A stretch of 64,000 nucleotides of DNA from a virus. Positions 5,440 through 61,848 of the stretch are shown here, in pieces. The DNA is taken from IMG/VR virus record IMGVR_UViG_3300023235_001181. One strand, written 5' to 3'. The notes beneath the pieces were generated by a model that ran no database searches, was not told where the DNA came from, and worked only from the letters and a program-made list of their open reading frames with translations. The position numbers and the translations under genes were made by a program. The first letter of the stretch is position 1. Every line of letters starts with the position of its first letter.

Positions 5440-6987
5440 CTACGGAAGTCTGAGAATGTTGATGCCGTCGTCCGTGTGGCGCACCACCTCGTACCCGTGG
5501 CTGATGTAGTAGTCCTTCACCTTGCACAGGTCATGGGCAGCCACCGTGAGTCGCCTTGCAACAAAGGTCTCGGCTACGTGCTTGCCCACACCCATCCCAC
5601 GGTAACCAGGTAGCAGGTACGCGGAGTTCCAGTCCTCATACTGAGCCACGAGCCCGGCGATTCTGCCCCATGCGATCACGGGCGTCAGCTTGCTCTCGGC
5701 AAGGATCTCTTCCTGTCCTACGTCACGGATGTGCTGAGCCCATTCGAGCTTCACGTCTTCCCATTCCGAGCGCATGAACGCTACGTCACCATCACCGAAC
5801 CCGATGAGCGTGCCGTGGTTCACAAGGTCCAGGGTCCAGCTCTGGGAGAGGCGGTACGGTCCGAGGCAGTGCAAGATCTCCTGCGCCTCTTGCACCGTTC
5901 CGCACGGGTACGGGTAGACGGTCTTGGTGTGCGGTACGACGTAGCCACCGTGGAAGTGCAGCAGCGCCTTGAGTCCCTTCATGTCGTGATAAAGGCGCGC
6001 GTGTACCGAGCAGTCGATGGAAGGCTTGACAGTGCCATGAGCGCGCGTCAAACGATCAGAGATGTCAGCACTCGCAAAGATGAACTCGTCCGGCTTCACG
6101 TCACCCTTCTGCACACCGCGCGGGGTAGCCCAGAAGTGGGTGGGGATGGAGCTGATGAGCTGGGTCACGTTGCCGTCAGAGCTGTCAAGGAGGTTGGCCT
6201 CTTGAGCGAAGGCGAGCAGGGCTTGTGCCTCCTCCAAGGAGTCCACGAAGGTGTCCTTGGGGTCAACACCAGGGTAGAGCACGTCTTCGTCGTACAGCTC
6301 GGTCCTGCTCCACTGCACAGCTTGACGGTTGATGCAGAGGTCGACAATGGCTGCGGAAACATCCGTCTTGGAGCCTTCAAGCGGTATGGCCCCTCCCTCT
6401 GGGGTCACCGCGTAGCACGGATGCAGTCCCTTGTTCTCGGGGAGGCTGAGCTTGCTCCAATCGTTCGCGATGGTCAGGTTGATGCGACAGCTCTTCACCT
6501 GCGCCAGTGCCACGCTGATCAACTCATCGTCAGTCACGTCGCTCAGGAGCTTCCACCCTACGATGAAGGGACGGTTGGGCACCCACTCCCTCAGGTTGGC
6601 GAGGATCTTGGGCGTGCGCTTGAGGACGAGCGTCTGCTCGTCGTTCTTGGAGCGGATCTTCCCTTCCACGGGGACGGGAGCGTAGTCGCTGATGGCAGCG
6701 GGCATCAGGATGAAGTCGAAGTCACCCGTGTTTGCCAGGTCCTTCACTTGGTCGTAGAGCTCTTGGTACGTGCGGAACGTGTAGATGCCGCTCACGCCTC
6801 CGACGGTGTCCCCGTACATGCTCAAGGTGCGTTCAGCGGCGAGAAGCGTCACGTTGACACCCCTCGCCGCGAACAGATTGGCGACGGTACACCCGAACCG
6901 ACCCTTGGAGCGGTTGGTGATGACGCGGACGTCGTCGATGTCGACTTCCGTGCCTCCGGTCACGACAAGGGCTCTCAGTTCAGGCAT
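5440..6987 (-). CDS. multidomain enzyme: N-terminal CoaB/DFP-like (phosphopantothenate-cysteine ligase fold) domain + central unknown domain + C-terminal GNAT-like domain
   Basis: 515 aa; ITNRSKGRFGCTVANLFAARGVNVTLL matches CoaB ISNxSSGKMG...GA-VTL signature; C-terminal LLPGYRGMGVGKHV resembles GNAT motif A. Confidence 0.55.
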   Translation of the reverse strand: MPELRALVVTGGTEVDIDDVRVITNRSKGRFGCTVANLFAARGVNVTLLAAERTLSMYGDTVGGVSGIYTFRTYQELYDQVKDLANTGDFDFILMPAAISDYAPVPVEGKIRSKNDEQTLVLKRTPKILANLREWVPNRPFIVGWKLLSDVTDDELISVALAQVKSCRINLTIANDWSKLSLPENKGLHPCYAVTPEGGAIPLEGSKTDVSAAIVDLCINRQAVQWSRTELYDEDVLYPGVDPKDTFVDSLEEAQALLAFAQEANLLDSSDGNVTQLISSIPTHFWATPRGVQKGDVKPDEFIFASADISDRLTRAHGTVKPSIDCSVHARLYHDMKGLKALLHFHGGYVVPHTKTVYPYPCGTVQEAQEILHCLGPYRLSQSWTLDLVNHGTLIGFGDGDVAFMRSEWEDVKLEWAQHIRDVGQEEILAESKLTPVIAWGRIAGLVAQYEDWNSAYLLPGYRGMGVGKHVAETFVARRLTVAAHDLCKVKDYYISHGYEVVRHTDDGINILRLP

Positions 6988-8591: not shown

Positions 8592-9020
8592 TCAGTCTTC
8601 CTTGTCCTTGATCGCCTTGATGAGGTCTTTGGCGTCGTACACAGGGATGCCATTCTCTTCGAGCTCTTCCTCTGCAAGAGCCTCCGCAATCATGGCCTCT
8701 TCGTCCACAGGCTCGAAGATCACGTCAAGCTTCACCCGCACTTGGTAGACGCCGGGCATGAGGCTTTCATTGGCGAGGTAGGCAGTCTCTTCGTCGGCAT
8801 CAACCCACAACGCAGTCAGAGCTGTCGCGCCGGACATCATCTGACGGAGAGTGGTACCCTCCATGAACTGTCCCTTGAAGGTGTAGCCGAGCTGTCCACG
8901 CTCGTGACCACCGATCACCTCTTCCTCTTCGTCCTCGTCGAGAATGGACTCTACGGCGGTGCGGAGAACGTACTTGGTCACACGATGGAACTGAGTCTTG
9001 ATTAGATCTCGCAACTTCAT
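8592..9020 (-). CDS. hypothetical acidic protein
   Basis: 142-aa ORF. Confidence 0.45.
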   Translation of the reverse strand: MKLRDLIKTQFHRVTKYVLRTAVESILDEDEEEEVIGGHERGQLGYTFKGQFMEGTTLRQMMSGATALTALWVDADEETAYLANESLMPGVYQVRVKLDVIFEPVDEEAMIAEALAEEELEENGIPVYDAKDLIKAIKDKED

Positions 9021-13914: not shown

Positions 13915-14448
13915 TCAAGAAATGGGTACCAACAGCGTACTCATGGAGTTGCCCTGGAACGAGATCTTGCTCTCCACCTTGGCAACGTCGGCCAGGGCCT
14001 CGATCACCTTCATCATCTGCGCTTGACCCACGTCGCGTCTACGCATCTCACGACGGCGGAAGCGTACTTCGACCTTCACCCGACTGCCCTCGCTGATGAA
14101 CTGTCGGATCTTGCGGACCTTGGTGTCAAAGTCGTGGGTGTCCGTAGTGGGACGGAACTTGATCTCACGCACGGAGTTGGCAGCAGAGTTCCTCCGCTGC
14201 TCCTTCTTGGCCTTCTGGCTCGCGTACCGCATCTTCCCGAAGTCGACAATCTTGCAGACGGGCGGGGTGGCATCGGGGGACACTTCAACAAGGTCAAGCC
14301 CTGCGTCCTGCGCGCGGTTGTACGCGTCACGGGTCATGAAGATGCCAAGTTGGCGTCCCGTCTCGTCAATGAGACGTACGCGGGTTGCTCGGATTTCTCG
14401 ATTGCGGCGAGGCCCATTATCGGGACTCTTATCACGGCGAGGGGGCAC
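13915..14448 (-). CDS. infC: translation initiation factor IF-3
   Basis: 177 aa; IRATRVRLIDETGRQLGI...VEVSPDATPPVCKIVDFGK...EIKFRPTTDTHDFDTKVRKIRQFISEGSRVKVEVRFRRREM aligns along full length with bacterial IF-3 N- and C-domains; GTG start after GGAGTAG SD. Confidence 0.8.
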   Translation of the reverse strand: MPPRRDKSPDNGPRRNREIRATRVRLIDETGRQLGIFMTRDAYNRAQDAGLDLVEVSPDATPPVCKIVDFGKMRYASQKAKKEQRRNSAANSVREIKFRPTTDTHDFDTKVRKIRQFISEGSRVKVEVRFRRREMRRRDVGQAQMMKVIEALADVAKVESKISFQGNSMSTLLVPIS

Positions 14449-24869: not shown

Positions 24870-25206
24870 GGGCGTCCTTCTTCTTCGGTGGGATCAAGCC
24901 CACCAGGTCCCAGTACACTGAATGTGTTCGGTTGTGGTTGATTTCCAGCCACACGCGGAAGCACTCAGTGTCCAGAGCGAATCGCCCTCCTCTGAGTACT
25001 TTCCCGTCGCGGGTGATCTCCATGGTACGTCCACCCTTGAGCTTCCTACCCCGGCTCGCTGCCACACGACGCACGAACATGATGTCGCGCTCGGCCTTGA
25101 GTACCGTCTCGGTTCCCTTGGGTCCGTGGATGTAGAGGCAGTAGGAGTAGTTCTTGGGCACGCTCACCCCATAGGCTGTGGGTTGATGGTCGGAGGGCGG
25201 TCCCAC
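24865..25206 (-). CDS. hypothetical basic protein
   Basis: 113-aa ORF. Confidence 0.4.
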
Positions 25207-25535
25207 TCGTCAGGCACGGTGCCCAACTGTTCCGTCCAATCAACGCCTCGAGCTATGCAGACGTCAGAGTAGTTCTTGAGGTAGTAGGGAGCCATCAGGG
25301 GGCTGATCCACGGAAGGTTGTCGGCCACGTCTTTCGCGTCCTTCATGCCCATCCCCAGGTCCCGCATGGTCCGGATGACTTCCATCCGGTCACCGCCTGT
25401 GATGGTGACCGTTCCACGGTCGTCAGGGACCATCTTCTGAACCCAGCCACGCTGGAGCACCTCGTTGCAGAGGTCGGTCATCTCCTCGAAATCGAGGGTG
25501 GCAAGGTAGTCTGCTACTTCTTCACGGGTCGGCAT
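25164..25535 (-). CDS. ribosomal protein L7/L12 C-terminal-domain-like protein (paralog 2)
   Basis: MPTREEVADYL...RMEVIRTMRDLGMGMKDAKDVADNLP resembles bL12 CTD ([24 protein letters not shown]); paralog of upstream gene. Confidence 0.5.
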   Translation of the reverse strand: MPTREEVADYLATLDFEEMTDLCNEVLQRGWVQKMVPDDRGTVTITGGDRMEVIRTMRDLGMGMKDAKDVADNLPWISPLMAPYYLKNYSDVCIARGVDWTEQLGTVPDEWDRPPTINPQPMG

Positions 25536-25538
25536 GGT

Positions 25539-25976
25539 TCAGCCCTCGTCGAATAGAAGAGTGGTTCGGTTCAGCGGTCCGGGCTCAACGTACTCAGCCT
25601 CGGCCTCGGGGATTTGTCCCTGTTCACCACCCGGCGTCAGGTCGTAGCGCGCACCGATCCTGTCGAGGATCCCAACAATCTCCGGCTCACGGTCTACGCC
25701 GTCTCGGTCCGTAGGGATCGGGAAAGTCCAGGGGTTGCGGGCAAGGTCCTCGGAGCGTACCTTGGATTCCTTGAGGCCCTCTCCAGTCACGGATCGGATC
25801 AGCTTGATGAGCTGGATCTTGTTGTCACCGAAGGTGTGTACCGTGAGGGTGGTCGGACCGAACTTCTTCACCTTGATCTGCTGCCACCCCGCGCGGATAG
25901 CCTCGTTGCAGATGTCCTCGATGTCGAGGATCTCACACTGAGCGAGGTAGCTGACCACTTCTTCACGGGTTGTCAT
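25539..25976 (-). CDS. ribosomal protein L7/L12 C-terminal-domain-like protein (paralog 1)
   Basis: MTTREEVVSYL...NKIQLIKLIRSVTGEGLKESKVRSEDLARNP matches bL12 CTD helix-turn pattern. Confidence 0.55.
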   Translation of the reverse strand: MTTREEVVSYLAQCEILDIEDICNEAIRAGWQQIKVKKFGPTTLTVHTFGDNKIQLIKLIRSVTGEGLKESKVRSEDLARNPWTFPIPTDRDGVDREPEIVGILDRIGARYDLTPGGEQGQIPEAEAEYVEPGPLNRTTLLFDEG

Positions 25977-26495: not shown

Positions 26496-26526
26496 CAACG
26501 CCTTTCGTAGCGTGAAAGTCAGAGCC
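26496..26526 (-). promoter_or_regulatory. bipartite promoter-like motif (GGCTCTGACT-N16-GCGTTG); TGA of upstream gene lies inside CTCTGA
   Basis: minus-sense cgaaaGGCTCTGACTttcacgctacgaaaggCGTTGaaggaGTAGCACGGAGcacgaaTTG. Confidence 0.5.
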
Positions 26527-27025
26527 TTTCGGAATAGATTGCGACACTGGCTCGAACAGCGTCTTCTTCGTCCGCCCGTCGGAGGGTGAGCAGTAGGCGG
26601 ACGTGACCATCTACATGCCCTTTGAATCCACTTGCCTGATCGGCTTCTTTCCGGGCACTGATGAGCGCGTTAGCCATCCCACGGGAGGTCTCGCCACGCA
26701 AGGAGCGTATAGAGATCATGAGGACTGAGTGGGCTCCACGCACCCGTTCGAACTTACCGATACTGAATCCCTTCAGGTTACTTGAGTCCCACCCGTCGAT
26801 GAGTAGCTCCCTTCGGTCCACGGATATCAGGGAGATAGCCCATGAGGTGTGAGTGTACGCTTCGAGCTTCGCCCACACCTCAACCTGACGCAGCAACCCG
26901 CTGAGCTTCAGGGCAGTCAAGGGCGGCGTGAACACAAGGTCTGGGAACTCTGGAGGCGGGACGGGCTCGCCGTCTTCCCCCATCAGCTCTTCGAGCCTCG
27001 CATGTTGCTCTGATTCTTCAGGCAT
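26519..27025 (-). CDS. hypothetical protein (paralog of 27033-27512)
   Basis: MPEESEQHARLEELMG.. vs MEETEQHSRLDELMG.. shared N-termini. Confidence 0.5.
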   Translation of the reverse strand: MPEESEQHARLEELMGEDGEPVPPPEFPDLVFTPPLTALKLSGLLRQVEVWAKLEAYTHTSWAISLISVDRRELLIDGWDSSNLKGFSIGKFERVRGAHSVLMISIRSLRGETSRGMANALISARKEADQASGFKGHVDGHVRLLLTLRRADEEDAVRASVAIYSERL

Positions 27026-27032
27026 GTGGTCC

Positions 27033-27512
27033 TCAATAGAGTGGCTTGGATCCGAAGCCCACGAAAGCGGGGCGCACTTCTTCCTCGTCCCTTGCCACGT
27101 AGAGCAGGAGTCGGGGGTGTGGATACTTCTCAAGGTCTGGGGGCTTGTCTCTCTTGGACTTAGCCGTCAGGGCTCGCACGGCGGCTTTCGCCTTGGGGTC
27201 CTTGTAGAGGCTGGTGCGAACGGCAAGATAGAACCGGTTGGCTGCCGATGACCATGCCAGCTCACCAAGGCCGGGGAGGGTCAGTAGGCGTTCCTCATCC
27301 CATCCCGCCACTACCAACTCACGGCGAATCGCGTTGGGCATTCCCACCTTGAAGTTCAAGCTACGTCCAGTCCAGAGCTCCACCTCGTAAAGGATCGCAA
27401 GGAGCTGCTCGATGGTCATGGGAGACGTGTAGCGAAGATCGGGGAACGGATGGGGATCCGGGGTGTCGCCCATCAACTCGTCGAGTCGACTATGCTGTTC
27501 GGTCTCTTCCAT
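27033..27512 (-). CDS. hypothetical protein (paralog of 26519-27025)
   Basis: 159 aa. Confidence 0.5.
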   Translation of the reverse strand: MEETEQHSRLDELMGDTPDPHPFPDLRYTSPMTIEQLLAILYEVELWTGRSLNFKVGMPNAIRRELVVAGWDEERLLTLPGLGELAWSSAANRFYLAVRTSLYKDPKAKAAVRALTAKSKRDKPPDLEKYPHPRLLLYVARDEEEVRPAFVGFGSKPLY

Positions 27513-43079: not shown

Positions 43080-44051
43080 TCAATCACCGAAGAAGTCCTT
43101 CGCCCACTCGAACTGGAAGCCCGCCCGTGCCGCAAAGGTCTGGTCGCTCTTCATGTCGCCCACGTAGATGCAGGCGTCCGGGTTGAGCTTGTACTTCTCG
43201 ATGAACACGACGCCCATGCCTGCCATCGGCTTGCGCCAGTAGGAGCTCGGGGGTCCACCACGGTCAGGGGCGAACAGGTACTCGATGTCATGTCCGAGCT
43301 GCCGGTTGGTCTCATCGAAGCAGTCGCGGCAGGTGACGTCGCTGACGTACTTGGGGCTGTCCGAGGCTTGGCTCACACCGCTCTGGTTGCTGATGCCCAG
43401 GATCCGGTAGCCCTTGTCGATGTACTCCTGGATGATGGCGGTACGTCCCTCCAGAGCGCGCACGTCCCCGATCTCCTTGGGGTAGTGGTCACCACTGTTG
43501 GTCAGGCGCAACGTGCCGTCGTAGTCGAGCAGCAGAGCCTTCCCCGTGTACTCGGAGCCGAAGTCGGTCACCACGTCCACTTCTTCGATGCTGTCGAAGC
43601 CCTCGGCCATGGTCGGGTCTTCGAACTGCTTCCAGTACGCAAACTGAGCCATGGGCGGGAACATGTTCGGGTTCTTGCGGTGCTTCTTGTACTCGGCCTT
43701 GCCGAAGAGCACACCGAACTTCTGGATCTGACGCCGGGCCGCAAAGAGCTGAGCCTGCTCACGGGTGGTCTGTAGCCACAGCACGCGGACAGGTAGGTTG
43801 AGCTGCCTTGCGTTCACCATCAGGCCCCGGCGTGCGGCGACGTTCCGGTAGGTGTTGTCAAGCACGAAGCGGCGCTTCCCGCGCTTGTACTGCTCCTGCA
43901 TCACCTTGTAGATCTTGCTGTCGGGACTGTTCAGCTTCCCGCCGATCTCGTCACGGTTGATGCGGGTGTAGCCCTGCTTCACGAGGGATTGGACGTGCGT
44001 GGTCTTCCCGCCGCCCGGAGGTCCCATGACAATGACGATTTCGTGTTCCAT
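43080..44051 (-). CDS. pnk: polynucleotide 5'-kinase/3'-phosphatase (T4 Pnk-like)
   Basis: 323 aa; P-loop GPPGGGKTT kinase N-domain; HAD phosphatase C-domain with LLDYDGTL (DxDGT) and GDMKSD motifs. Confidence 0.75.
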   Translation of the reverse strand: MEHEIVIVMGPPGGGKTTHVQSLVKQGYTRINRDEIGGKLNSPDSKIYKVMQEQYKRGKRRFVLDNTYRNVAARRGLMVNARQLNLPVRVLWLQTTREQAQLFAARRQIQKFGVLFGKAEYKKHRKNPNMFPPMAQFAYWKQFEDPTMAEGFDSIEEVDVVTDFGSEYTGKALLLDYDGTLRLTNSGDHYPKEIGDVRALEGRTAIIQEYIDKGYRILGISNQSGVSQASDSPKYVSDVTCRDCFDETNRQLGHDIEYLFAPDRGGPPSSYWRKPMAGMGVVFIEKYKLNPDACIYVGDMKSDQTFAARAGFQFEWAKDFFGD

Positions 44052-44309
44052 TCAATCCTCGAGTAGTAGCGCGAGCCTGTCCACTTCTTGTACAGGTGGT
44101 TCAACAACCTCAGGAGCCAGTTCGCGCGGTTCGTAATAGCCCGTCGTCCCGTCGTCATGACGGACGGTGAACACCGCGCCGTGCCCGTTCTTCAATCGGG
44201 TGATAATTCCGTACACGCCCCACTTCCTCGAGAGGAGTGCTTCGGGCATCCAGTCATTCGATATGGACTCAGGGCGCACGGTGAGCACGCGGTCGTTCAC
44301 GGCAATCAT
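44052..44309 (-). CDS. hypothetical protein
   Basis: 85 aa. Confidence 0.4.
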   Translation of the reverse strand: MIAVNDRVLTVRPESISNDWMPEALLSRKWGVYGIITRLKNGHGAVFTVRHDDGTTGYYEPRELAPEVVEPPVQEVDRLALLLED

Positions 44310-44720
44310 ACTCCAATCTCCAGGTATGGGTTCTGAGGATCATTCGTGTTGGTGATGGCGATGATGCCGTCCAAATCTCTGAAAATGGTAGCCATCACTT
44401 CGTCGTAGGTGTTCCGGTTGATGATCTGGTCCCTGTGCTTGAGGCACTGACCCTCCGCGAGGAGGATGTCAGGGGTGTACCGCTCCATGGTGGAGGGCCT
44501 CCTGTCCAAGACGAGGAGCAGCCTCTTGTCCTCGTTGTTCGCCAGTTCGCGCCACCGAAGCAGGTACGCTGACCGGACCTGGTACATGGACAGCAACGAG
44601 GTCATTTCGACGTTGAGGTCTGCCCTTGCAGCCTCGGTAGCTGCAAGGGTTTGCATGGCTCCTTCTGACACCCCCTCTTCCGGAGGGGGGTCAATCTCAA
44701 GTAGGAGGTGAAGCCTATCG
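44306..44720 (-). CDS. hypothetical protein
   Basis: ORF to 44821 overlaps Prs gene; true start likely internal. Confidence 0.4.
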
Positions 44721-45701
44721 AGAGCCACCCCAGCCTCGCGGGAGGTGGTGAAGCACGGAGTCCACCAACACCGGAGCGCATCGCATGATGCGGAAGATGC
44801 CGGAGGTGCCTGGCTTGTCAAGGGTGTTCACCATCTTCACGGCGCGCGGGTGGCTGTCAAAGGAGTACACCGCGTCGAGTACGCCGTCGAACATGGCGTG
44901 CGTGTCGGCGGGGCTCTTGGTGTAGACGCCGTGGCTCAGGATCGCGCTGACGCCAATGGCACCCGCGTCCATGTAGCTCTTCGCTCCACCCACGAGGCTG
45001 CTACCGCTCCGGGTCATGTCGTCCACGAGGATCACGTACTTGCCCTTGACGTCGGCGCTGACGTTGGTCACCTCGGTGGTCCCGCCGTCGATGCGTCGCT
45101 TGCCGATGAAGGCAGGGAGCCAGCCACCCATCTCGGAGGCGATGTACTCCACACGCTTCGCACCACCGGCATCAGCGGAGCCAATCACGGCATCAGCGAC
45201 GCCCTGCTCAGCCACGATCTCGCGGATCGCGTCGAGGATGATCGGCTGTCCACGAGAGTGGATCTGGTGGGCTCGGTCTCCGAAGTAGTGGGGGATGCCC
45301 TCTGCATGGAGATCGAGGAACACGATCCGGTTGCCGTTGTAGGCCTCGGGGATGGCGCTGAGCAGCCGGGCGCGCGTCTTGGCAGTCACCACCTCACGCG
45401 TCTTGGGCTTGGCGCGCTCCATGGTGCTGTACCCGAAGTAGGGGATCACGATGGTCAGAGAGCGAGCTCCGTAGGCCACAATCGCGCAGCAAGCGTCGAA
45501 CATCTCCATCGTGTCGTTGTCGTTGATGGTGCCGCCGAGGTACACCACGTCACGGTCACGCACTGAGGTTTCGATGCGCTGGTACCGCTCCCCGTCAGGG
45601 AAGGTCTTGATCAGCACCTCGCCCCGGTCGAAGCAGGGGTCTACGTCAACAAACGTAGGGGCGAGGTACTCGTAGCTTCGGGTAGCAAAGAGAAGAGGCA
45701 C
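44715..45701 (-). CDS. ribose-phosphate pyrophosphokinase (PRPP synthetase) family protein; could be an ADPR-PP-synthetase-type Prs homolog
   Basis: 328 aa; N-domain GEVLIKTFPDGE...RDVVYLGG, DLHAEGI, PRPP loop VILVDDMTRSGSS. Confidence 0.75.
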   Translation of the reverse strand: MPLLFATRSYEYLAPTFVDVDPCFDRGEVLIKTFPDGERYQRIETSVRDRDVVYLGGTINDNDTMEMFDACCAIVAYGARSLTIVIPYFGYSTMERAKPKTREVVTAKTRARLLSAIPEAYNGNRIVFLDLHAEGIPHYFGDRAHQIHSRGQPIILDAIREIVAEQGVADAVIGSADAGGAKRVEYIASEMGGWLPAFIGKRRIDGGTTEVTNVSADVKGKYVILVDDMTRSGSSLVGGAKSYMDAGAIGVSAILSHGVYTKSPADTHAMFDGVLDAVYSFDSHPRAVKMVNTLDKPGTSGIFRIMRCAPVLVDSVLHHLPRGWGGSR

Positions 45702-45714
45702 GTTGGTTCTCCTT

Positions 45715-46902
45715 TTAGAGGACGCTCTCTACGATACGAACGTAGAGGTCATCCAGCTTGTCCATGTCGGGGCTGTAAGGTAGCACGGGAGTGAGCTCGG
45801 GAAGGGGCTCGAGGCCCTTCTTCACCCGCGCAGTCACACGCTGCTTCTCGGTACCGTAGTACGATGTGTAGATGTCACCGAGAGCGGCGTTCTCGCGATC
45901 AGCCCAGTCCACCAACTCGTCGTAGGTCCAGGCACCCTTGCGGATAGCGAGGAGCTCTTCACGGTCGATCCCGCCGCGCCACACATGCACCTTGCCCGTC
46001 GTCAAGATCTCCCGTCCCATGCGGAGCAGGCGAACGAGGTGGGCACCGTGCTTGGTGTCGTAGCCGGAGGCAGCTTCCAGCGCAGCCCGCTTGGGGTTCC
46101 GCTGACGCTTCCAGGTCTCGAAGCTCTTCCAGTTCTTTTGGGCGTCCTTGTACCGCTTCTCACCCTTGAGGGCCTCGAGCAGTCCTTCGTCGATCCCGAT
46201 GGAGCGTGCGGCAGCAATCCACAGTTCATCGTCGGTGGTCACGCCGATGGTGGCGAGGGTCTCAGCGATGTTGTCCTTGGCGCGGATCTTCTCGCTGTCG
46301 GCCATTTCGCCGAAGTCCCACTTCCACTCGTCAAGCTGCTTGTCGATGGCGGCGAGGAGCACGTTGCGCTGATGCTGCGTCACCACTTCCTCACCGAGGC
46401 CAAACTCCTCGCGGGTCGGCTTGTGGGTCGGAGGGTTGAGCAACCAGGCCCGGTGTCCCTTGATGCGCTTGAGCTGCTGGAAGGCGTAGCCGGTGAAGCG
46501 GTGCTTGGCGGCTCCACTCAGGAAGAGGTCCCGGTGTTCGCGGAGCAACTGCCCGGCCCAGTTGTGCATGAGCAGCTCTTCGTCGCGGCAGAAGAGCACG
46601 TCGAGCATTCCGGGGTTGCAGTCGGCGGTCAGCTTCATGAACTTGCCGAGGCCGTACACGACGCCCTCGAGCTTCTCGCGTTCGGCGGCGTCCATCTGCT
46701 CGGCGTCGAGGTACTTGCGGAAGGGTTCCATCTGCCCAGGCTTGTCGCACTGGTCGAAACGCTTGCGGAAGGTCAAGTGGTACGGACGTGGAGGTAGGCA
46801 GACGCCCTTGAGGTCTACGTCCGAAGTGTCGGTGTGGAGCCCGTAAGCTCGGGAACCAGCCACTCCAACGAGGATCGCAGAGTCATGTAGGTCGAAATCC
46901 AT
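45715..46902 (-). CDS. nucleotidyltransferase (Pol-beta superfamily) with C-terminal extension
   Basis: 395 aa; GSRAYGLHTDTSDVDLKGV; second copy of the family in the window. Confidence 0.6.
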   Translation of the reverse strand: MDFDLHDSAILVGVAGSRAYGLHTDTSDVDLKGVCLPPRPYHLTFRKRFDQCDKPGQMEPFRKYLDAEQMDAAEREKLEGVVYGLGKFMKLTADCNPGMLDVLFCRDEELLMHNWAGQLLREHRDLFLSGAAKHRFTGYAFQQLKRIKGHRAWLLNPPTHKPTREEFGLGEEVVTQHQRNVLLAAIDKQLDEWKWDFGEMADSEKIRAKDNIAETLATIGVTTDDELWIAAARSIGIDEGLLEALKGEKRYKDAQKNWKSFETWKRQRNPKRAALEAASGYDTKHGAHLVRLLRMGREILTTGKVHVWRGGIDREELLAIRKGAWTYDELVDWADRENAALGDIYTSYYGTEKQRVTARVKKGLEPLPELTPVLPYSPDMDKLDDLYVRIVESVL

Positions 46903-52544: not shown

Positions 52545-54038
52545 TCACCTCATTGTCGGGAACAGAATCACGTCCCGAATTGATTGTGTGTCTGTCAACA
52601 GCATCACGAGCCGGTCGATGCCAATCCCCTCACCGGAGGTGGGAGGCATACCGAAGCTCAACGCGTCGATGTAGTCCTGGTCGAAGTACATGGCTTCATC
52701 GTCCCCGCGTGCCTTGGCAGCAGCCTGGGCCTGGAAACGAGCAGCCTGCTCAACGGGGTCGTTCAGCTCTTGGAAGCCGTTGGCGATTTCCATACCGGCG
52801 ATGTAGAGCTCGAAGCGGTCTGCTACCTCTGGGTCATCAGCAGATGCTCGAGAGAGTGGGCTGATGTCCAAGGGGAATCCGGTCACGAAGGTCGGCTGGA
52901 TCAGCTTGTCCTCAACGTACTCGTCGAAGTAGAGCTGGAACCACCGCCCGATGGTCCGGGGGAGCTTGGTAGCGTCCGGGTGGTCCTGTACCCACCTCGA
53001 GCGCATCTCGGGCATGGAGAAGGGGTCGTTGATGCCCGCGTGCTCCATGATCAGGTCGGCCATGCTCACGCGCCTGAAGGTGGTCAGGTCAAGCTCGTGC
53101 CCGTCGTAGGTGCAGACGTCCATCGGAAGGAACTCGCCAACCCGGCAGGCTTCCTCGTAGATGACGCGGTTGTTGGCACCACGGATGATGGCTTCGGTGG
53201 TGTCCATCAGGTCAGCCGGTGTGGCGTGGGCCTGATAGAACTCCAGCATGGTGAACTCGGGGTTGTGCGTCCCGTCCACTCCCTCGTTCCGGAAGTTGCG
53301 GTTCAGCTCGAACACTCGCTCGTAGCCACCCACGATGAGCCTCTTGAGGTAGAGCTCAGGGGCGATGCGTAGGTAGAGGTCCTTGTCGAGAGCGTTGTGG
53401 TGCGTCACGAATGGTCGTGCGTTCGCACCGCCTGGGAGCGTCTGCATCATCGGCGTCTCCACCTCCATGAACCGATGGTCTTCAAAGTACCTCCGGATGT
53501 AGGATACGATGGTGCTGCGCGCACGGAACCGGTCGCGAGTGTCTTGGCTCACGATGAGGTCGAGGTACCGCTGACGGCGCTGCTGCTCCACGTCGGTGAA
53601 CCCCGCGTGCTTGTCCGGCAGGCTCTTGATGCACTTGGAGTAGAGCGCAAGGCTGTCCACCTTGAGGCTCAGGTCACCGCGTCGGGTACGGATGAGCTGC
53701 GCTTCTGCGTACACCCAGTCGCCGATGTCCAACTTCTTCCACACGTCGGCGTACATGACGGGGCCGATGCCCGCACGGCGCACGAACAACTGCATCCGGC
53801 TTTCGCCATCCTCGATGAAGGCGAAGCCAATCTTGCCCATCTCGTTCTTCTGGACGATGCGTCCGGCCACACGGTAGACGGTGGTCTGCGCCTCCAACTC
53901 CTCCGCGCTCAGATCAGCACCGATGCGCAAGATCTCGAGCAGCCGGTGGCTGAGGTCCTTGGAGACGGGATAGGGATCTACGCCTTCAGCGCGTAGTGCG
54001 TCCAACTTTTCCAGCCGTGCTGGTTCAAATTCGCTCAC
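52545..54038 (-). CDS. lysS: lysyl-tRNA synthetase, class II
   Basis: 497 aa; motif 2 FRNEG..HNPEFTMLEFY, motif 3 GEGIGIDRLVMLLTDTQSIRDVILFPTMR, N-terminal OB anticodon-binding domain. Confidence 0.85.
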   Translation of the reverse strand: MSEFEPARLEKLDALRAEGVDPYPVSKDLSHRLLEILRIGADLSAEELEAQTTVYRVAGRIVQKNEMGKIGFAFIEDGESRMQLFVRRAGIGPVMYADVWKKLDIGDWVYAEAQLIRTRRGDLSLKVDSLALYSKCIKSLPDKHAGFTDVEQQRRQRYLDLIVSQDTRDRFRARSTIVSYIRRYFEDHRFMEVETPMMQTLPGGANARPFVTHHNALDKDLYLRIAPELYLKRLIVGGYERVFELNRNFRNEGVDGTHNPEFTMLEFYQAHATPADLMDTTEAIIRGANNRVIYEEACRVGEFLPMDVCTYDGHELDLTTFRRVSMADLIMEHAGINDPFSMPEMRSRWVQDHPDATKLPRTIGRWFQLYFDEYVEDKLIQPTFVTGFPLDISPLSRASADDPEVADRFELYIAGMEIANGFQELNDPVEQAARFQAQAAAKARGDDEAMYFDQDYIDALSFGMPPTSGEGIGIDRLVMLLTDTQSIRDVILFPTMR

Positions 54039-54164: not shown

Positions 54165-55736
54165 TTAGGCTGCCGCAGCCACCGCTTCCGCGCGGGCTCG
54201 GGTACACGTCTCGATCAAGCTCAGGGTGATGCCGTCCACGGCGGGTCGGTGTTCGAAGCCGTCACGTCGCGCCGAGTCACCGGGTCCGTACACACGCCAG
54301 CCCTTCGGGAGGTTGCCGTACTGACACACCATCGTAGCGGGTCCGTGTGAGGGGTGAGCAGCGTTCTCGCGCACGGCGAGTACCGGGATGCCGGGGAGGC
54401 TCTGCTTCCCGCTCCAACCCTCTTCCAGCTCATCGCCGAACTTCATGGTCGGTCCGTACTTGGACGTCCAGGCGAGCTTGTAAACCATGCTCACCAAGCC
54501 ACGTCGGTAGCCGGTGGGCTCCGGGCGGTCGATGAAGTAGCCGCCCGCGCCAAACAGCGTCACCTCTTCGGGGTAGTCAACCTCGATGCGGAGCGCCTCG
54601 TACCGTGCAACGTCCTTGTCGTCGATGCCGTCTTCAAATACCCACGGGCGGGGTCGGATGCCGCGTGCCTTGATCTCGCTCACGATGTAGCGGAACTGCT
54701 CCTCAAGGGAGCCGCTGTCGGGTCGCATCCCGTCGTTCCGGTCCGGAAACTCTTCCATGAGCTTCAGGGCGGTCGGGATGCCCACCTTCATCGTGTCGTT
54801 GGTGTCGAGCAGCATGATCACGAGGGGCATTGCGGCGATGTGTGCGCGGAAGGCGCGTTCGTCGTTGCCACCGTGGCGCATGATGCCCTCATGGCCCAGC
54901 GTGCCAACTGCCTTGATGTCCAGCACGTAGGCACCGTAGGCGTTGGAGGTCAGCGTGAAGCCGAGGTCCTTCAGAGCCTTGAGCGCGATGAGGTGCTGCT
55001 CCATGCAGGTTGCGGCGCGGAGGCCAACCTCGAAGATGCGGTTCGGGCTCACGCCGGAGGCCAGCATCTTGATGCCCTGCAACTGCACCGCGTTGTAGTA
55101 GCTGAGCTCGTCCACGGTGATGCCGTTTTCGATGTCCCGCAGCTCCTGTCGGAAGTCGGCATCGCCGAAGTCCCTGCCCTTGTGGGCACCGAGGATCGCC
55201 TCCATGGTGAGCTCCTTCTGGCGCTCACAGGTCACGGTGCGGATGGTCTCGAGGAAGGCGGGCATCGTGTCGCCCTCGCGGGCCTTGATGTAGGCGGTCG
55301 CTACCTGCATCTGGTAGCTGAAGCGTCCCGAAACCAACGGCTCGAGCCAGCTTGCGATGGCCTGAGGAGCTCGCACGGTAGCCACGGGCTCACGGGGAGC
55401 AGCGTACTCGCCAAAGGGTGTCGCGTAGAGCACCTCAAGGCTGGAGCCGTCCACGGAGTCCCACAGCATCTTCTCGGTCACGTTGAAGCCGAAGTGCTGC
55501 AGTAGCGCGCACTCTTCCTTCACGGTCGCTGAGGTGGGGTTGGGGATCATCTCGCGGATCGCCGTCTCGGGATCCACAGGCATGAACATGAGCCCGCCGC
55601 GTCGGAAGCTCAGATAGAACACTTCCTTCTCTTCGGGGCGTCCGCCAGCCATCATGGGCCACTTGTAGCCGTCCGATCCGAGGGTGCTTTCGCGCCAGGA
55701 TCGCTTGCCTGCAAGTAGTTGTCGTAGAATGCTCAT
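54165..55736 (-). CDS. nadV: nicotinamide phosphoribosyltransferase family protein (NadV/Nampt-like; alternatively a Namat-type transferase)
   Basis: 523 aa; GSDGYKWPM (cf. TDSYKVTH), GIRPDSGSLEE (cf. RPDSGNP), FGAGGYF (cf. FGSGGGL). Confidence 0.75.
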   Translation of the reverse strand: MSILRQLLAGKRSWRESTLGSDGYKWPMMAGGRPEEKEVFYLSFRRGGLMFMPVDPETAIREMIPNPTSATVKEECALLQHFGFNVTEKMLWDSVDGSSLEVLYATPFGEYAAPREPVATVRAPQAIASWLEPLVSGRFSYQMQVATAYIKAREGDTMPAFLETIRTVTCERQKELTMEAILGAHKGRDFGDADFRQELRDIENGITVDELSYYNAVQLQGIKMLASGVSPNRIFEVGLRAATCMEQHLIALKALKDLGFTLTSNAYGAYVLDIKAVGTLGHEGIMRHGGNDERAFRAHIAAMPLVIMLLDTNDTMKVGIPTALKLMEEFPDRNDGMRPDSGSLEEQFRYIVSEIKARGIRPRPWVFEDGIDDKDVARYEALRIEVDYPEEVTLFGAGGYFIDRPEPTGYRRGLVSMVYKLAWTSKYGPTMKFGDELEEGWSGKQSLPGIPVLAVRENAAHPSHGPATMVCQYGNLPKGWRVYGPGDSARRDGFEHRPAVDGITLSLIETCTRARAEAVAAAA

Positions 55737-56742: not shown

Positions 56743-57861
56743 CTACTTGCTGAGCTGCTGCACAGCTTCCAGCAGTCCGCCACCAATGGTCACGGAGCTG
56801 AGGTTGCTGAGGCCTGCGGGGATGCCCTGGATGGCCAGTGCGAGTGCGGCTTCACCCTTCTCCTCGAAGGCTGCGAGCTGAGCCTCAACCTCGGCCACGC
56901 GGGCTTCACCGAGCGCCTCTTCCTGAGCGACGGTCTGAGCGTCCACGGAGATCCGAATGGCGAGTGCCTGCTCGTCGGAAGCAGCCTTGTTCTCGAGGCG
57001 CTGGGCCTCGGCGTTGGCGGCGTCCTCGAGCTGACGTGCGGAGGTGAGCTCCTGAGCCCTGAGGTTGGCCTCAGTCTTCTTGCGCCCCTGCTCCAACTCG
57101 GCGTCCGTGCGGATGCTCACAACAGCAGCGGAGCTGGCTTCCGAGGCCTCACTGTTCACGCGGTCCTGAGCGATCAGGGCCTCGCGCTGCTTGGCGAGCA
57201 GAAGCTTGTTGTTCAGTGCCGCTTCCTCGATGGCACGCTCCTTCTCAGTAGCGTTGGCACGCCGGTCGAAGGTGGCCTCGTCAGCTTCCTGCTTGAGGCG
57301 CTCGTTGGTCTTGGTCTGGAGGGCCTGAGCAACGTCCCGGTTGGGCTTGATGCTGGTCACGCTTGCGGCGAACACCTCGATGCCGATGTCCAGCGCCTGG
57401 AGGGCGGCAAGCACAACGTCGGAGATGGCCTTGGGGTCATCCACAAGCAGCGGCTCGAGCTCCTGCTGGGAGATGTAGCTCCACGCCGCCTGCTGCGCCG
57501 TGTTGGTCAGCACCGTGGCGATGTCCGTGGAAGGGTCGCCCAGCGGAGTGCCGGTGTCGGTGTCCACAGCGAAGTTGAAGCGGGAGGCGATGTTGAGCGC
57601 CGCTTCAACTCCTACGCGCCACTGGCCCGTCGCGCTGACGGTGACGTCCTGGAAGTCCTTGGTGCGGCAGTTGAAGGTCAGCGGGACGGTCTGGTCCACG
57701 ACGGGTACCTCAGAGAGGCTCGTGCCCTTGGTCCAGAACCACAGCCAGAAGCTGAGGCCGGTGCCGCTCTTGGTGACCTTGCCACCTGCAGATGCGATCA
57801 GAAAAGTGTGAGCCTCGCCACGCACGTTGCGTAGAGGCCCGAAGGTTGAGATGGTTGCCAT
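56743..57861 (-). CDS. SPFH/band-7 (flotillin-like) protein
   Basis: 372 aa; N-terminal SPFH-like region then ~200-aa A/E/Q-rich coiled coil with EA repeats. Confidence 0.65.
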   Translation of the reverse strand: MATISTFGPLRNVRGEAHTFLIASAGGKVTKSGTGLSFWLWFWTKGTSLSEVPVVDQTVPLTFNCRTKDFQDVTVSATGQWRVGVEAALNIASRFNFAVDTDTGTPLGDPSTDIATVLTNTAQQAAWSYISQQELEPLLVDDPKAISDVVLAALQALDIGIEVFAASVTSIKPNRDVAQALQTKTNERLKQEADEATFDRRANATEKERAIEEAALNNKLLLAKQREALIAQDRVNSEASEASSAAVVSIRTDAELEQGRKKTEANLRAQELTSARQLEDAANAEAQRLENKAASDEQALAIRISVDAQTVAQEEALGEARVAEVEAQLAAFEEKGEAALALAIQGIPAGLSNLSSVTIGGGLLEAVQQLSK

Positions 57862-58893: not shown

Positions 58894-59583
58894 CTACTCG
58901 TCGGCCTCGGCTGCAGCGGCAGCAGCTTCCCGCGCGGTCTTGTTGGCGCGGTCGCAGCCTTCGATCTTGTCGATGAGCCCGTACTCCAGAGCCTCCTCGG
59001 CGGTCATCCAGTTGTCGAGCTGCATGTCGGCTTCGAGCTTCTCGAAGCTCTGGCCGCAGTTCTCGGCCAGCAGCCGGGTCAGCTTCTGGTGGAGGCGGTC
59101 TGTGTGCGCCATCGCCGCCTTCATGTCCTTGTACTTGCCCTGGTTGCCCGAGCTCAGCTCGTGGATCATGATCTCGCTGTTGGGGAGCGCCGAGCGGTTG
59201 CCCGCCGAGCCCGCACTGAGCAGGAAGCTACCCATGGAAGCCGCCATACCCACGACGGTCGTGTGGACGGGGCTGTCGATGAGCTGCATGGTGTCGTAGA
59301 GCGCGAGGCCGTCGATCACCGAGCCACCGGGGCTGTTGATGTACATCATGATGGGCTTGCCGGGAGCGTCCGCCTCGAGGAAGAGGAGCTGCCCAATGGC
59401 GATGCGCATCGAAACGCTGTCCACCTGGGTGCCGACGTAGATGATGCGGTCCCGCATGAGCCGGGAGAACAGGTCGAAACTCCGCTCCATTCGGCCATCG
59501 GATTCCACCACGACGGGGATGTTGTAGTTGGCAGGCAGTCCGCCGAGGGAGGCGAGTACTTCGAGCTGTTCACGAGTGGGCAT
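58894..59583 (-). CDS. clpP: ATP-dependent Clp protease proteolytic subunit ClpP (S14)
   Basis: YINSPGGSV, GMAASMGSFLL (Ser), MIHEL (His) catalytic motifs; likely ATG MPTREQL preceded by ACGGAGCACCAA; ORF track extends to TTG at 59631. Confidence 0.8.
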   Translation of the reverse strand: MPTREQLEVLASLGGLPANYNIPVVVESDGRMERSFDLFSRLMRDRIIYVGTQVDSVSMRIAIGQLLFLEADAPGKPIMMYINSPGGSVIDGLALYDTMQLIDSPVHTTVVGMAASMGSFLLSAGSAGNRSALPNSEIMIHELSSGNQGKYKDMKAAMAHTDRLHQKLTRLLAENCGQSFEKLEADMQLDNWMTAEEALEYGLIDKIEGCDRANKTAREAAAAAAEADE

Positions 59584-59637
59584 TTGGTGCTCCGTTGAGG
59601 TCATTTTCACAGGACGGTGATCGGGTTTCAATAGTGC

Positions 59638-61541: not shown

Positions 61542-61848
61542 ATTTCGGGTCCTGCCACCAGTCCTGGCTTTCCAAATCAAGCATCTCGTAGAGGCGGTCT
61601 GGAAGTTCCGACAGCCCTTCCTCCCTGAACCACTCCCCACGCCACCGAATGCGGTAGCTGCGAAGTCGCCCATGGATGTAGAACTCGGTGGGTCCCTCTT
61701 TGGGGACGAGCAGGATGACCTTCAGCGTGTAGGGGTTCCCGGTCTGAAGCTCGTTGAGGCGGCGCTCAATGTCCTTGGTGCGTCCGATCTTCACCACCCC
61801 GGTCACCGCCGCTTGGATGATGTACAGGTCCTCCCCAAACGATTTCAC
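61534..61848 (-). CDS. T5orf172/GIY-YIG-like domain protein
   Basis: 104 aa; LYIIQAAVTGVVKIGRTKDIERRLNELQTGNP matches T5orf172 (MUG113) signature. Confidence 0.5.
   Translation of the reverse strand: MKSFGEDLYIIQAAVTGVVKIGRTKDIERRLNELQTGNPYTLKVILLVPKEGPTEFYIHGRLRSYRIRWRGEWFREEGLSELPDRLYEMLDLESQDWWQDPKYL

What the first reader, a model, noticed from the sequence alone, without database searches (positions are those of the whole stretch)
25164..25976. Tandem pair of ribosomal L7/L12 C-terminal-domain-like proteins
Two adjacent paralogs (123 and 145 aa) share an MxTREEVxxYLA N-terminus and a K/R-hhIK/R-hR-x-hTGxGLK-E/D-AK segment resembling the bL12 CTD that recruits translational GTPases. Neither has the bL12 N-terminal dimerisation/L10-binding region. 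They could be decoys for, or recruiters of, IF2/EF-G/EF-Tu. Together with IF-3 and LysRS this points to deliberate manipulation of host translation.
Basis: partly seen in the sequence, partly recalled or inferred. Interest (0 to 1): 0.6.

Follow-up and report, generated by a model that had tools for sequence, protein, structure and literature searches.

The report
Hinge-less phage copies of ribosomal bL12
Two neighbouring genes in a probable giant-phage genome encode very divergent copies of the whole bacterial ribosomal stalk protein bL12 (anchor domain plus factor-binding domain) without its flexible hinge, an unusual variant of the already known habit of phages to carry bL12-like genes.

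Summary
Two tightly packed minus-strand ORFs (25539..25976, 145 aa; 25164..25535, 123 aa) are paralogs (35% identity, E 2e-14). Both carry the bL12 C-terminal-domain helix 4/5 signature.

For the 145-aa protein the whole CTD is supported:
- Pfam PF00542 scores above its gathering threshold.
- Thermotoga L12 matches at E 2.5e-5.
- The AF2 model's best PDB matches are bL12 chains (TM 0.7 to 1ctf).

For the 123-aa copy only the N-terminal domain and helices 4/5 are demonstrable.

The shared MxTREEVxxYLA N-terminus aligns in register with the bL12 dimerisation/uL10-binding hairpin. Against a 73-sequence bL12 profile hhalign gives P 7.7e-6. The single sequences score 19.4-19.9, against a maximum of 12.4 for 388 decoys. 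What is missing is the hinge: 12-13 residues of different composition, against 21-33 Ala/Gly/Pro-rich residues in cellular bL12.

The family is an orphan, with three members among billions of proteins. A related contig has a single copy.

Phage-encoded bL12 and IF-3 are already known, so this is a new variant of a known kind. Mechanism is inferred only: entry into the stalk through the NTD, or soluble binding of translational GTPases.

The parts
25539..25976 (-). Gene 1: 145-aa divergent bL12 homolog (NTD-like hairpin + short linker + complete CTD + acidic C-terminal tail)
   Evidence: ORF. PF00542 27.7 bits, above the gathering score of 25.9. 1dd3 E 2.5e-5. hhalign against bL12 gives probability 98.4, E 8.5e-15. 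AF2 pLDDT 77.7. Foldseek top hits are bL12.
25884..25976 (-). Gene 1 residues 1-31: two-helix hairpin (H4-13, H16-28), counterpart of the bL12 N-terminal dimerisation/uL10-binding domain
   Evidence: hhalign of the NTD alone against a 73-sequence bL12 NTD profile scores 24.4, P 7.7e-6, in register from Met1. 388 real 35-aa decoys give mean 6.5, sd 1.8, max 12.4, against 19.9 for this sequence. Pfam PF16320 itself does not hit.
25848..25883 (-). Gene 1 residues 32-43 (QQIKVKKFGPTT): short, non-Ala/Pro linker that replaces the bL12 hinge. AF2 predicts an extra beta-strand at 33-39, with low confidence.
   Evidence: With the adjoining Leu44 included, the segment between the NTD-end Trp31 and the second residue of beta-1 is 13 residues and 23% A/G/P/E/V. 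In 73 cellular bL12 the equivalent segment is 21-33 residues with a median of 85%.
25635..25847 (-). Gene 1 residues 44-114: bL12 CTD (beta1, helix 4, helix 5, beta2, helix 6, beta3) with the factor-binding residues retained
   Evidence: phmmer alignment of query 44-110 to 1dd3 61-124. 1ctf TM 0.71. E. coli positions G62, K65, I69, K70, R73, G79, L80, K81, E82 and K84 are all retained.
25539..25634 (-). Gene 1 residues 115-145 plus stop: acidic tail with the motif E-Y/H-VEPGPL-x-R-x-x-LL-x-D, shared with the ortholog P0002 and absent from bL12 and from gene 2
   Evidence: Alignment A1. Low pLDDT of 39-69. Function unknown.
25164..25535 (-). Gene 2: 123-aa paralog. It has the same NTD-like hairpin and helix 4/5 motif; the distal half is divergent and there is no tail motif.
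   Evidence: ORF. 35% identical to gene 1. PF00542 19.4 bits, E 1.4e-3, below threshold. bL12 HMM E 8.5e-5. AF2 pLDDT 66.6, with about 91 over residues 1-20 of the NTD. No significant fold match.
25443..25535 (-). Gene 2 residues 1-31: bL12 NTD-like hairpin
   Evidence: hhalign of the single sequence against the 73-sequence bL12 NTD profile scores 19.7, P 1.4e-4, against a decoy maximum of 12.4. AF2 predicts H4-13 and H16-28.
25311..25409 (-). Gene 2 residues 43-75: beta1/helix 4/helix 5 segment with conservative replacements of the factor-binding residues (K65R, K70R, L80M, E82D; R73, G79, K81 and K84 kept)
   Evidence: HMMER alignment to the bL12 HMM at positions 65-97. Column table.
25533..25552 (-). 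Junction between the genes: ...GACGAGGGC TGA ACC ATG. A Shine-Dalgarno-like GAGGG lies 9 nt upstream of the second start. The two ORFs are in the same frame.
   Evidence: Sequence read. The spacer is GCC in strain L005.

Best explanation
Both genes descend from a complete rplL (bL12) gene captured by a large phage-like element, and were then remodelled and duplicated. Each protein keeps three things. First, an N-terminal two-helix hairpin equivalent to the bL12 domain that dimerises and docks on the C-terminal helix of uL10. Second, the helix 4/helix 5 face of the CTD that cellular bL12 uses to bind IF2, EF-Tu, EF-G and RF3. Third, in the 145-aa copy, the whole CTD fold. The Ala/Pro-rich flexible hinge has been replaced by a 12-13-residue linker, and the 145-aa copy has gained a conserved acidic tail. 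Most likely mechanism (inferred, about 40%): during infection the proteins dimerise through the NTD, as homodimers or as a heterodimer of the two paralogs. They then exchange with host bL12 on uL10, or form mixed dimers with host bL12. The result would be stalks whose factor-binding domains are held close to the stalk base instead of swinging freely. That would change how translational GTPases are recruited to host ribosomes, as modulation or partial shut-down to the phage's benefit. Shown here: homology of the CTD and, less strongly, of the NTD; loss of the hinge; retention of the factor-binding residues; intact genes in several strains. Inferred: dimerisation, uL10 binding, factor binding and any effect on translation.
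For: The AF2 model and its bL12 top hits come. The whole-protein profile-profile alignment starts at the N-termini of both families, with the hinge as one deletion (prob 98.4, E 8.5e-15). The NTD alone scores P 7.7e-6 against a taxonomically broad 73-sequence bL12 NTD profile. The single sequences score 19.4-19.9, against mean 6.5 and max 12.4 for 388 real decoys. HMMER also places weak in-register NTD alignments. The NTD is the best conserved part among the three family members, with 12 invariant positions in the first 31 residues, several of them polar. That suggests a binding surface rather than only a hydrophobic core. The factor-binding residues of helices 4/5 are kept. Other proteins that match the family profile have only CTD modules, in 4-7 tandem copies in the eight top-scoring ones checked against Pfam, and no other protein in the listed top 150 matched over the NTD. 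The NTD+CTD order is therefore specifically bL12-like. bL12 reaches the ribosome only through its NTD and uL10 (PMC3299993). Peptides of a phage bL12-domain protein were detected in 70S preparations (PMC6375957). Huge phages are known to carry L7/L12 and IF3 (PMC7162821), and IF-3 is present in this window.
Against: Pfam's own NTD model PF16320 does not hit. An NTD-only HMMER profile finds no bL12 in the PDB. A 9-sequence bL12 NTD HMM does not single the proteins out. NTD homology therefore rests on profile-profile scores. The most conserved bL12 NTD positions (E27, E28, G31-V32) are not kept. The hinge is known to be important for bL12 function (PMC3299993; Bubunenko 1992, cited in PMC4592705), so a hinge-less protein cannot work as a normal stalk protein. 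In Mizuno et al. the tagged phage bL12 could not be co-purified with ribosomes. The AF2 alignment contained bL12 sequences, so the model is not independent evidence. The host and its uL10/bL12 are unknown. No uL10 gene lies nearby. The viral nature of the contig is inferred and not shown within the window.
Confidence: 0.42

Rival explanations
1. Soluble factor binder. The proteins never enter the ribosome. They dimerise through the NTD and use the conserved helix 4/5 face to bind translational GTPases (IF2, EF-Tu, EF-G, RF3) in the cytoplasm. They either sequester the factors to throttle host translation or hand them to a phage partner through the acidic tail.
For: The factor-binding residues are retained. 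The hinge needed for the normal stalk function is missing. The conserved bL12 NTD positions E27/E28/G31-V32 are not kept, so uL10 docking may be lost. A conserved extra C-terminal motif suggests a further partner. CTD modules are widely used outside the ribosome.
Against: It gives no reason to conserve a bL12-like NTD so strongly unless that domain serves only for dimerisation. From general knowledge, isolated bL12 CTD binds factors only weakly, so an effective sponge would need high expression. Nothing was tested.
Confidence: 0.28
2. Anti-defence or anti-toxin decoy. The proteins mimic the bL12 stalk so as to capture host effectors that must dock on bL12 to reach the ribosomal A-site, such as the CRISPR-associated CARF-RelE nuclease Cami1. 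This would protect translation of phage mRNAs.
For: bL12 is a chain of the Cami1-70S complex 8phj, which appears among the fold matches. [quoted passage not shown] A hinge-less, possibly off-ribosome bL12 mimic fits a decoy. The 145-aa gene is among the most variable genes of the region between strains, as might be expected for an arms-race gene, but the counts are tiny.
Against: There is no direct evidence. The host and its defence systems are unknown. The conserved residues are the general factor-binding ones. The variation counts (5 synonymous, 4 nonsynonymous) do not show positive selection.
Confidence: 0.07
3. Repurposed module with no link to translation. The bL12-derived fold (or a ClpS-like adaptor fold) serves as a generic protein-protein interaction domain for a phage process, for example as an adaptor of the phage-encoded ClpP. 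The N-terminal hairpin would then be an unrelated helical domain that merely resembles the bL12 NTD.
For: ClpS structures are the next-best fold matches and a ClpP gene is in the window. HMMER-level tests of the NTD are negative. Neighbouring genes have no translation annotation.
Against: The sequence signature is specifically bL12: 15 of 15 significant PDB hits are bL12 and there is no ClpS Pfam hit. NTD similarity is in register and well above real decoys. The ClpS matches have 4-13% identity and E of 0.07 or worse.
Confidence: 0.15

Closest known systems
Cellular ribosomal protein bL12 (L7/L12; Pfam PF16320 NTD + PF00542 CTD)
   Same: Same domain order: an N-terminal two-helix hairpin, then an alpha/beta CTD. 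The CTD helix 4/5 factor-binding residues G62, K65, I69, K70, R73, G79, L80, K81, E82 and K84 are kept or conservatively replaced. bL12 chains are the best sequence and fold matches.
   Different: There is no Ala/Gly/Pro-rich hinge: 12-13 residues against 21-33. The TEFD motif before beta-1 and NTD positions E27/E28/G31-V32 are not conserved. There is an insertion after helix 5, and the 145-aa copy has a 30-residue acidic tail. The genes are not in an rplJ-rplL operon. Overall identity to bL12 is only about 25-30%. PF16320 is not matched.
Virus-encoded bL12-domain proteins (Mizuno et al. 2019, PMC6375957) and L7/L12 genes of huge phages (Al-Shayeb et al. 2020, PMC7162821)
   Same: A PF00542 domain with conserved factor-contact residues, encoded by a phage-like genome, here together with other translation genes (IF-3, an aaRS). 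The same proposed role of altering host ribosomes or offering an interface for factors.
   Different: Mizuno et al. describe these proteins by their bL12 (PF00542) domain, alone or embedded in larger proteins, and the passages read do not mention an NTD. Here an NTD-like hairpin is retained while the hinge is lost. The gene is tandemly duplicated and the family has no detectable relatives in INPHARED or IMG/VR. A BFVD entry named RplL (125 aa, uncultured Caudovirales phage) shows that near-canonical full-length phage rplL also exists.
Non-ribosomal proteins with tandem L12 CTD repeats (e.g. P0018-P0025)
   Same: They share the helix 4/5 motif strongly (E down to 1e-49 through multiple repeats).
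   Different: Those proteins have 4-7 CTDs in one chain, often with LRV/HEAT repeats, and no NTD. The phage proteins have one CTD each, preceded by the NTD-like hairpin.
ClpS (adaptor of ClpAP)
   Same: The alpha/beta fold is similar to the bL12 CTD. ClpS is the second group of fold matches. A ClpP gene is in the window.
   Different: There is no sequence similarity (4-13% identity) and no Pfam ClpS hit. The GxGLKEAK signature is specific to bL12.

Membership tests
bL12 (ribosomal protein L7/L12) | C-terminal domain matched by Pfam PF00542 above the gathering score | tested here: met
   The 145-aa protein scores 27.7 bits against a cutoff of 25.9, but only profile positions 4-32 are aligned. 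phmmer to 1dd3 covers the whole CTD at E 2.5e-5. The 123-aa copy scores 19.4 bits, below the cutoff, so the criterion is met for gene 1 only.
bL12 (ribosomal protein L7/L12) | Three-strand/three-helix CTD fold | tested here: met
   The AF2 model of the 145-aa protein shows E43-48, H53-64, H68-76, E83-86, H97-106 and E110-114. Foldseek gives TM 0.67-0.73, normalised to the target, against 1ctf/1rqs/4v5m. The model's alignment included bL12 sequences. For the 123-aa protein the result is inconclusive: pLDDT 66.6 and no significant match.
bL12 (ribosomal protein L7/L12) | Conserved factor-binding surface on helices 4 and 5 (E. coli K65, I69, K70, R73, G79, L80, K81, E82, K84) | tested here: met
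   All are identical in the 145-aa protein and P0002. In the 123-aa copy the changes are K65R, K70R, L80M and E82D, and the rest are kept. Actual factor binding was not tested.
bL12 (ribosomal protein L7/L12) | N-terminal dimerisation/uL10-binding domain recognised by the family model PF16320 | tested here: not met
   PF16320 gives no hit at E<=10, either with the full proteins or with the isolated N-termini. An NTD-only HMMER search of PDB sequences finds no bL12.
bL12 (ribosomal protein L7/L12) | N-terminal two-helix hairpin homologous to the bL12 NTD by profile-profile comparison, in register | tested here: met
   hhalign against the 73-sequence bL12 NTD profile scores 24.4, P 7.7e-6, columns 1-26 to 1-27. 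Single sequences score 19.4-19.9, against mean 6.5 and max 12.4 for 388 real decoys. AF2 predicts helices 4-13 and 16-28 in both paralogs. Conserved bL12 positions E27/E28/G31-V32 are not retained.
bL12 (ribosomal protein L7/L12) | Flexible Ala/Gly/Pro-rich hinge between NTD and CTD | tested here: not met
   In 73 cellular bL12 the linker is 21-33 residues with a median of 85% A/G/P/E/V. In the phage proteins it is 12-13 residues with 15-42%.
bL12 (ribosomal protein L7/L12) | Gene in the rplJ-rplL (uL10-bL12) operon | tested here: not met
   The neighbours are small unknown ORFs, a NUDIX gene and a DUF4419 gene. Genuine bL12 genes P0004 and P0009 sit in rplKAJL-rpoB.
bL12 (ribosomal protein L7/L12) | Binds uL10 as a dimer and is part of the 50S stalk | not testable with these tools
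   This needs multimer structure prediction or biochemistry. The host and its uL10 are unknown.
Virus-encoded bL12-domain proteins (Mizuno et al. 2019) | PF00542 domain encoded in a viral genome | tested here: inconclusive
   The domain criterion is met. The viral nature of the contig (up to 257 kb) is inferred from several observations. The ORFs are dense, mostly of unknown function and nearly all on one strand. The auxiliary genes are of the kind seen in jumbo phages. One protein matches hypothetical proteins of jumbo phages XacN1 and Vibrio D479. No capsid, terminase or tail gene was seen in the window, and the contig is not in IMG/VR.
ClpS adaptor | ClpS sequence family match and N-degron pocket | tested here: not met
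   There is no ClpS family among the Pfam hits at E<=10. The fold matches are weak, with E of 0.07 or worse and 4-13% identity.
Tandem-repeat L12-CTD proteins | Several CTD modules in one polypeptide | tested here: not met
   Each ORF has one CTD. The two ORFs are in the same frame but separated by a TGA stop that is conserved in the strains examined.

The most novel reading that the evidence does not exclude
A phage makes its own stalk subunits. The two paralogs would form a heterodimer that docks on host uL10 through the bL12-like NTD. This would replace the mobile host bL12 with rigid, hinge-less CTDs, one of them bearing a new acidic ...LLFDEG tail reminiscent of archaeal/eukaryotic P-stalk tails. 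The stalk would then be re-specified for phage-favoured factor use, or shielded from stalk-dependent defence nucleases such as Cami1. That would be the first case of a virus re-engineering the GTPase-recruiting stalk of the bacterial ribosome.
Probability: 0.1. Interest if true: 0.8.

Novelty: new variant of a known kind. Interest (0 to 1): 0.42.

Why it matters
Phage-encoded bL12-domain proteins are known, but their mode of action is unresolved. The one tested example left open whether it stably enters ribosomes. This pair keeps an anchor-domain counterpart and the factor-binding face while dropping the hinge, which classical work says is needed for bL12 activity. That makes it a natural separation-of-function variant: a bL12 that could dock without being able to deliver factors. 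If it enters the stalk, it would give a concrete, testable mechanism for viral modulation of elongation-factor recruitment. If it stays soluble, it is a natural factor sponge. Either way it is a compact reagent (123-145 aa) for probing stalk function. If it turns out to be an inert or repurposed module, the finding is just another divergent accessory gene of a giant phage.

Tried and rejected
1. Close relatives in known phages. Megablast of the region and tblastn of both proteins against INPHARED found nothing.
2. Relatives with context in IMG/VR, JGI metagenome contigs and GTDB genomes. None was found. Only one distant ortholog exists (P0002, on contigs of 1-2 kb).
3. Exhaustive HMMER search of 1.84 billion representatives. 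Apart from the three family members, none of the 150 best-scoring proteins listed matches beyond the CTD module.
4. Pfam PF16320 on the isolated N-termini, and an NTD-only profile against PDB sequences. Both were negative. A small 9-sequence bL12 NTD HMM against the window ORFs was not significant. Its top hit, the C-terminus of ORF 8592..9020, was inspected and dismissed as a chance 17-residue match.
5. A column-shuffle control for the NTD was judged too lenient, and the first bL12 set was possibly biased by how it was retrieved. I therefore repeated the test with 73 independent bL12 sequences and with real-sequence decoys.
6. Fold search with the 123-aa model gave no significant match. The model is of low confidence.
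7. Selection analysis. Only one variant strain exists, with 5 synonymous and 4 nonsynonymous changes in gene 1 and at most 1 change in gene 2. That is too few for a conclusion.
8. Host identification. The closest cellular bL12 sequences by CTD similarity are gammaproteobacterial, but this is not evidence of the host.
9. Promoter and terminator scan of 23.5-29.5 kb. Nothing was above the shuffle expectation.
10. ClpS-adaptor reading. Rejected on sequence grounds.
Full report
**What is there.** Two ORFs lie head to tail on the minus strand: 25539..25976 (145 aa) and 25164..25535 (123 aa).
- They sit in a long run of tightly packed, same-strand genes.
- The upstream gene ends TAG directly before the first ATG.
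- The two ORFs are separated by TGA-ACC, with a GAGGG motif 9 nt before the second ATG.
- The next gene starts with a GTG that overlaps the stop of the 123-aa ORF.
- No promoter- or terminator-like site above expectation lies within 23.5-29.5 kb.
- The two proteins are paralogs: 35% identity over 88 residues, E 2e-14.
- Both genes are intact on at least eight contigs from several samples. These include a variant strain with four amino-acid changes in the first gene and none in the second.

**C-terminal domain of the 145-aa protein.**
- Pfam PF00542 scores 27.7 bits (gathering score 25.9).
- phmmer against PDB sequences aligns residues 44-110 with residues 61-124 of Thermotoga L7/L12, the whole CTD, at E 2.5e-5.
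- A profile of the family hits 15 bL12 chains (E 6.7e-9 to 5.5e-4) and nothing else significant.
- A bL12 HMM built from 73 cellular sequences, run with all filters off against the 564 ORFs of the window, finds only these two ORFs (E 4.2e-9 and 8.5e-5).
- An AF2 model (pLDDT 77.7) has the strand-helix-helix-strand-helix-strand order of the bL12 CTD.
- Its best PDB matches are bL12 chains. Full-length E. coli L7 ranks first, and 1ctf gives TM 0.71 normalised to the target. ClpS, a known fold relative, follows.
- The model's alignment included bL12 sequences, so it is supporting evidence and not independent evidence.
- The bL12 positions that are 96-100% conserved in 73 cellular sequences and lie on helices 4 and 5 are kept. 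The literature identifies the conserved CTD region as the site contacted by IF2, EF-Tu, EF-G and RF3 (PMC3299993).

**C-terminal domain of the 123-aa protein.**
- Pfam PF00542 scores 19.4 bits, below threshold.
- The helix 4/5 residues carry only conservative replacements: K65R, K70R, L80M and E82D.
- Only the stretch up to helix 5 is demonstrably bL12-like.
- Its model has low confidence (pLDDT 66.6) and finds no significant fold match.

The shared MxTREEVxxYLA N-terminus is not an unrelated leader.

Evidence for homology to the bL12 NTD:
- A profile-profile comparison of the three family members with genuine bL12 sequences aligns residue 2 of the phage proteins with residue 10 of the bL12 profile (residue 3 of the reference bL12). 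The alignment continues through the CTD with a single large deletion where the hinge should be (probability 98.4, E 8.5e-15).
- That first bL12 set had been retrieved with the phage profile, so I distrusted it. I rebuilt the test with 73 bL12 genes from many phyla.
- Against that profile the phage NTD profile alone scores 24.4 (P 7.7e-6), in register from Met1.
- The three single sequences score 19.4-19.9. By comparison, 388 real 35-residue segments from this window's own proteins give mean 6.5, sd 1.8 and maximum 12.4.
- AF2 predicts helices 4-13 and 16-28 in both paralogs. This matches the two-helix hairpin described for the bL12 NTD.

Evidence against:
- Pfam's PF16320 model does not hit.
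- An NTD-only HMMER search of PDB sequences finds no bL12.
- The most conserved bL12 NTD positions (E27, E28, G31-V32) are not retained.

I rate NTD homology at about 75-80%.

**What is really missing.** The hinge is what these proteins lack.
- In 73 cellular bL12 the segment between the end of the NTD and beta-1 is 21-33 residues with a median of 85% A/G/P/E/V.
- Here it is 12-13 residues, rich in Lys, Gln, Ile and Phe.
- AF2 predicts this segment, with low confidence, as an extra strand.
- The 145-aa protein and its ortholog also carry a conserved acidic tail, E-Y/H-VEPGPL-x-R-x-x-LL-x-D.

**Distribution.**
- The family is an orphan. In two very large protein collections, only the two window proteins and one 158-aa ortholog (46% identity, on contigs of 1-2 kb) match over the full length.
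- In the ortholog's contig the flanking genes are the same, but there is a single L12-like gene.
- The 123-aa copy is therefore either a lineage-specific duplicate that diverged fast or an older duplicate lost from the other lineage.
- The other listed hits of the exhaustive search match only the CTD module. The eight top-scoring ones, checked against Pfam, each carry 4-7 tandem CTDs, and two of them also carry LRV/HEAT repeats.

**Context.**
- The window is 60% GC, with nearly all genes on one strand and mostly unknown.
- It holds auxiliary genes of the kind seen in jumbo phages: IF-3 (13915..14448), LysRS (52545..54038), ClpP, PRPP synthetase, an NAPRTase-like protein, PNK, RlaP, several NUDIX proteins and an AAA protein.
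- One protein matches hypothetical proteins of jumbo phages XacN1 and Vibrio D479.
- The longest contig carrying the gene is 257 kb.
- No structural phage gene is in the window and there is no IMG/VR match, so a viral origin is likely but not shown.
- IF-3 and LysRS are far from the pair.
- An MprF-type Lys-tRNA-dependent transferase domain lies 8 kb from LysRS, which offers a non-translational use for that enzyme.

**Mechanism.** Everything beyond homology is inference.
- Established knowledge: bL12 reaches the ribosome only through NTD dimers on uL10; the CTD binds the GTPases; the hinge is important for function.
- Stalk entry, about 40%. A protein with an anchor and a binding face but no hinge would most simply be a stalk subunit that docks without delivering factors.
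- Soluble dimeric binder of GTPases, about 28%.
- Repurposed module, about 15%.
- Decoy for stalk-dependent defence nucleases such as Cami1, about 7%.

**Novelty.** Phage bL12-domain proteins, and L7/L12 plus IF3 in huge phages, are published (PMC6375957; PMC7162821). A near-canonical phage RplL is in BFVD. The hinge-less NTD+CTD architecture, the tail and the tandem duplication make this a new variant of a known kind. It is not a new kind.

Noticed in passing
window 26519..27133 (-) and 27033..27512 (-): A second tandem pair of paralogs lies immediately upstream of the L12-like pair (32% identity over 167 aa, E 7e-21). A 167-aa homolog occupies the same relative position in the related contig L002. 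There is no Pfam or PHROG match and the function is unknown.
   Followed up: partly
window 25533..25552 (-): The two L12-like ORFs are in the same reading frame and separated only by TGA-ACC (TGA-GCC in strain L005). Read-through of the stop would give a two-module protein like the tandem-CTD proteins found elsewhere. This could be chance (1 in 3).
   Followed up: partly
window 25539..25634 (-); L002 1074..1550: A C-terminal tail motif, E-Y/H-VEPGPL-x-R-x-x-LL-x-D, is conserved between the 145-aa protein and its 158-aa ortholog. It is absent from bL12 and from the 123-aa copy. The acidic ...LLFDEG end loosely recalls archaeal/eukaryotic P-stalk tails, but that is speculation based on very few residues.
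   Followed up: no
window 52545..54038 (-) and 61845..62801 (-): A class II LysRS (PF00152, E 1e-86) lies 8 kb from an ORF with a phosphatidylglycerol lysyltransferase C-terminal domain (PF09924, E 2.8e-10), a family that uses Lys-tRNA. The LysRS may therefore feed a tRNA-dependent transfer reaction and not translation takeover.
   Followed up: no
window 13915..14448 (-): A complete IF-3 (IF3_N E 3e-29, IF3_C E 2e-28). Its tblastn relatives occur in 41 phage records, at 38-45% identity among the 12 records listed.
   Followed up: partly
window 58894..59631 (-): A ClpP protease (PF00574, E 2.7e-63) is encoded in the window. It sits next to a DUF3228 protein, with an SPFH/Band 7 protein (56743..57861) about 1 kb further on.
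   Followed up: no
window 43080..46902 (-) and 54165..55736 (-): An RNA-repair and nucleotide/NAD-salvage gene set: polynucleotide kinase-phosphatase (43080..44051), PRPP synthetase (44715..45701), RlaP nucleotidyltransferase (45715..46902), an NAPRTase-like protein (54165..55736), two isochorismatase-family proteins and four NUDIX hydrolases scattered through the window.
   Followed up: no
window 5440..6987 (-): An unusual fusion of a DFP/CoaBC C-terminal domain (PF04127, E 2e-30) with a class II aldolase/adducin domain (PF00596, E 4e-10).
   Followed up: no
L005 1..5347 compared with window 22.5-27.9 kb: Between two strains the 145-aa gene (2.3% nucleotide divergence; 5 synonymous and 4 nonsynonymous changes) and the 159-aa upstream paralog (2.3%) are the most variable genes of a region that averages 0.75%. 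The 123-aa gene is nearly invariant (0.27%).
   Followed up: partly
proteins P0018-P0025 (public collections, not the window): Large non-ribosomal proteins carry 4-7 complete tandem bL12 CTD domains, two of the eight checked fused to LRV/HEAT repeats. Among the 150 top-scoring proteins listed, multi-stretch CTD-only matches predominate; 2576 proteins in all reach E<=1e-3. This looks like a little-discussed family that reuses the factor-binding module.
   Followed up: partly
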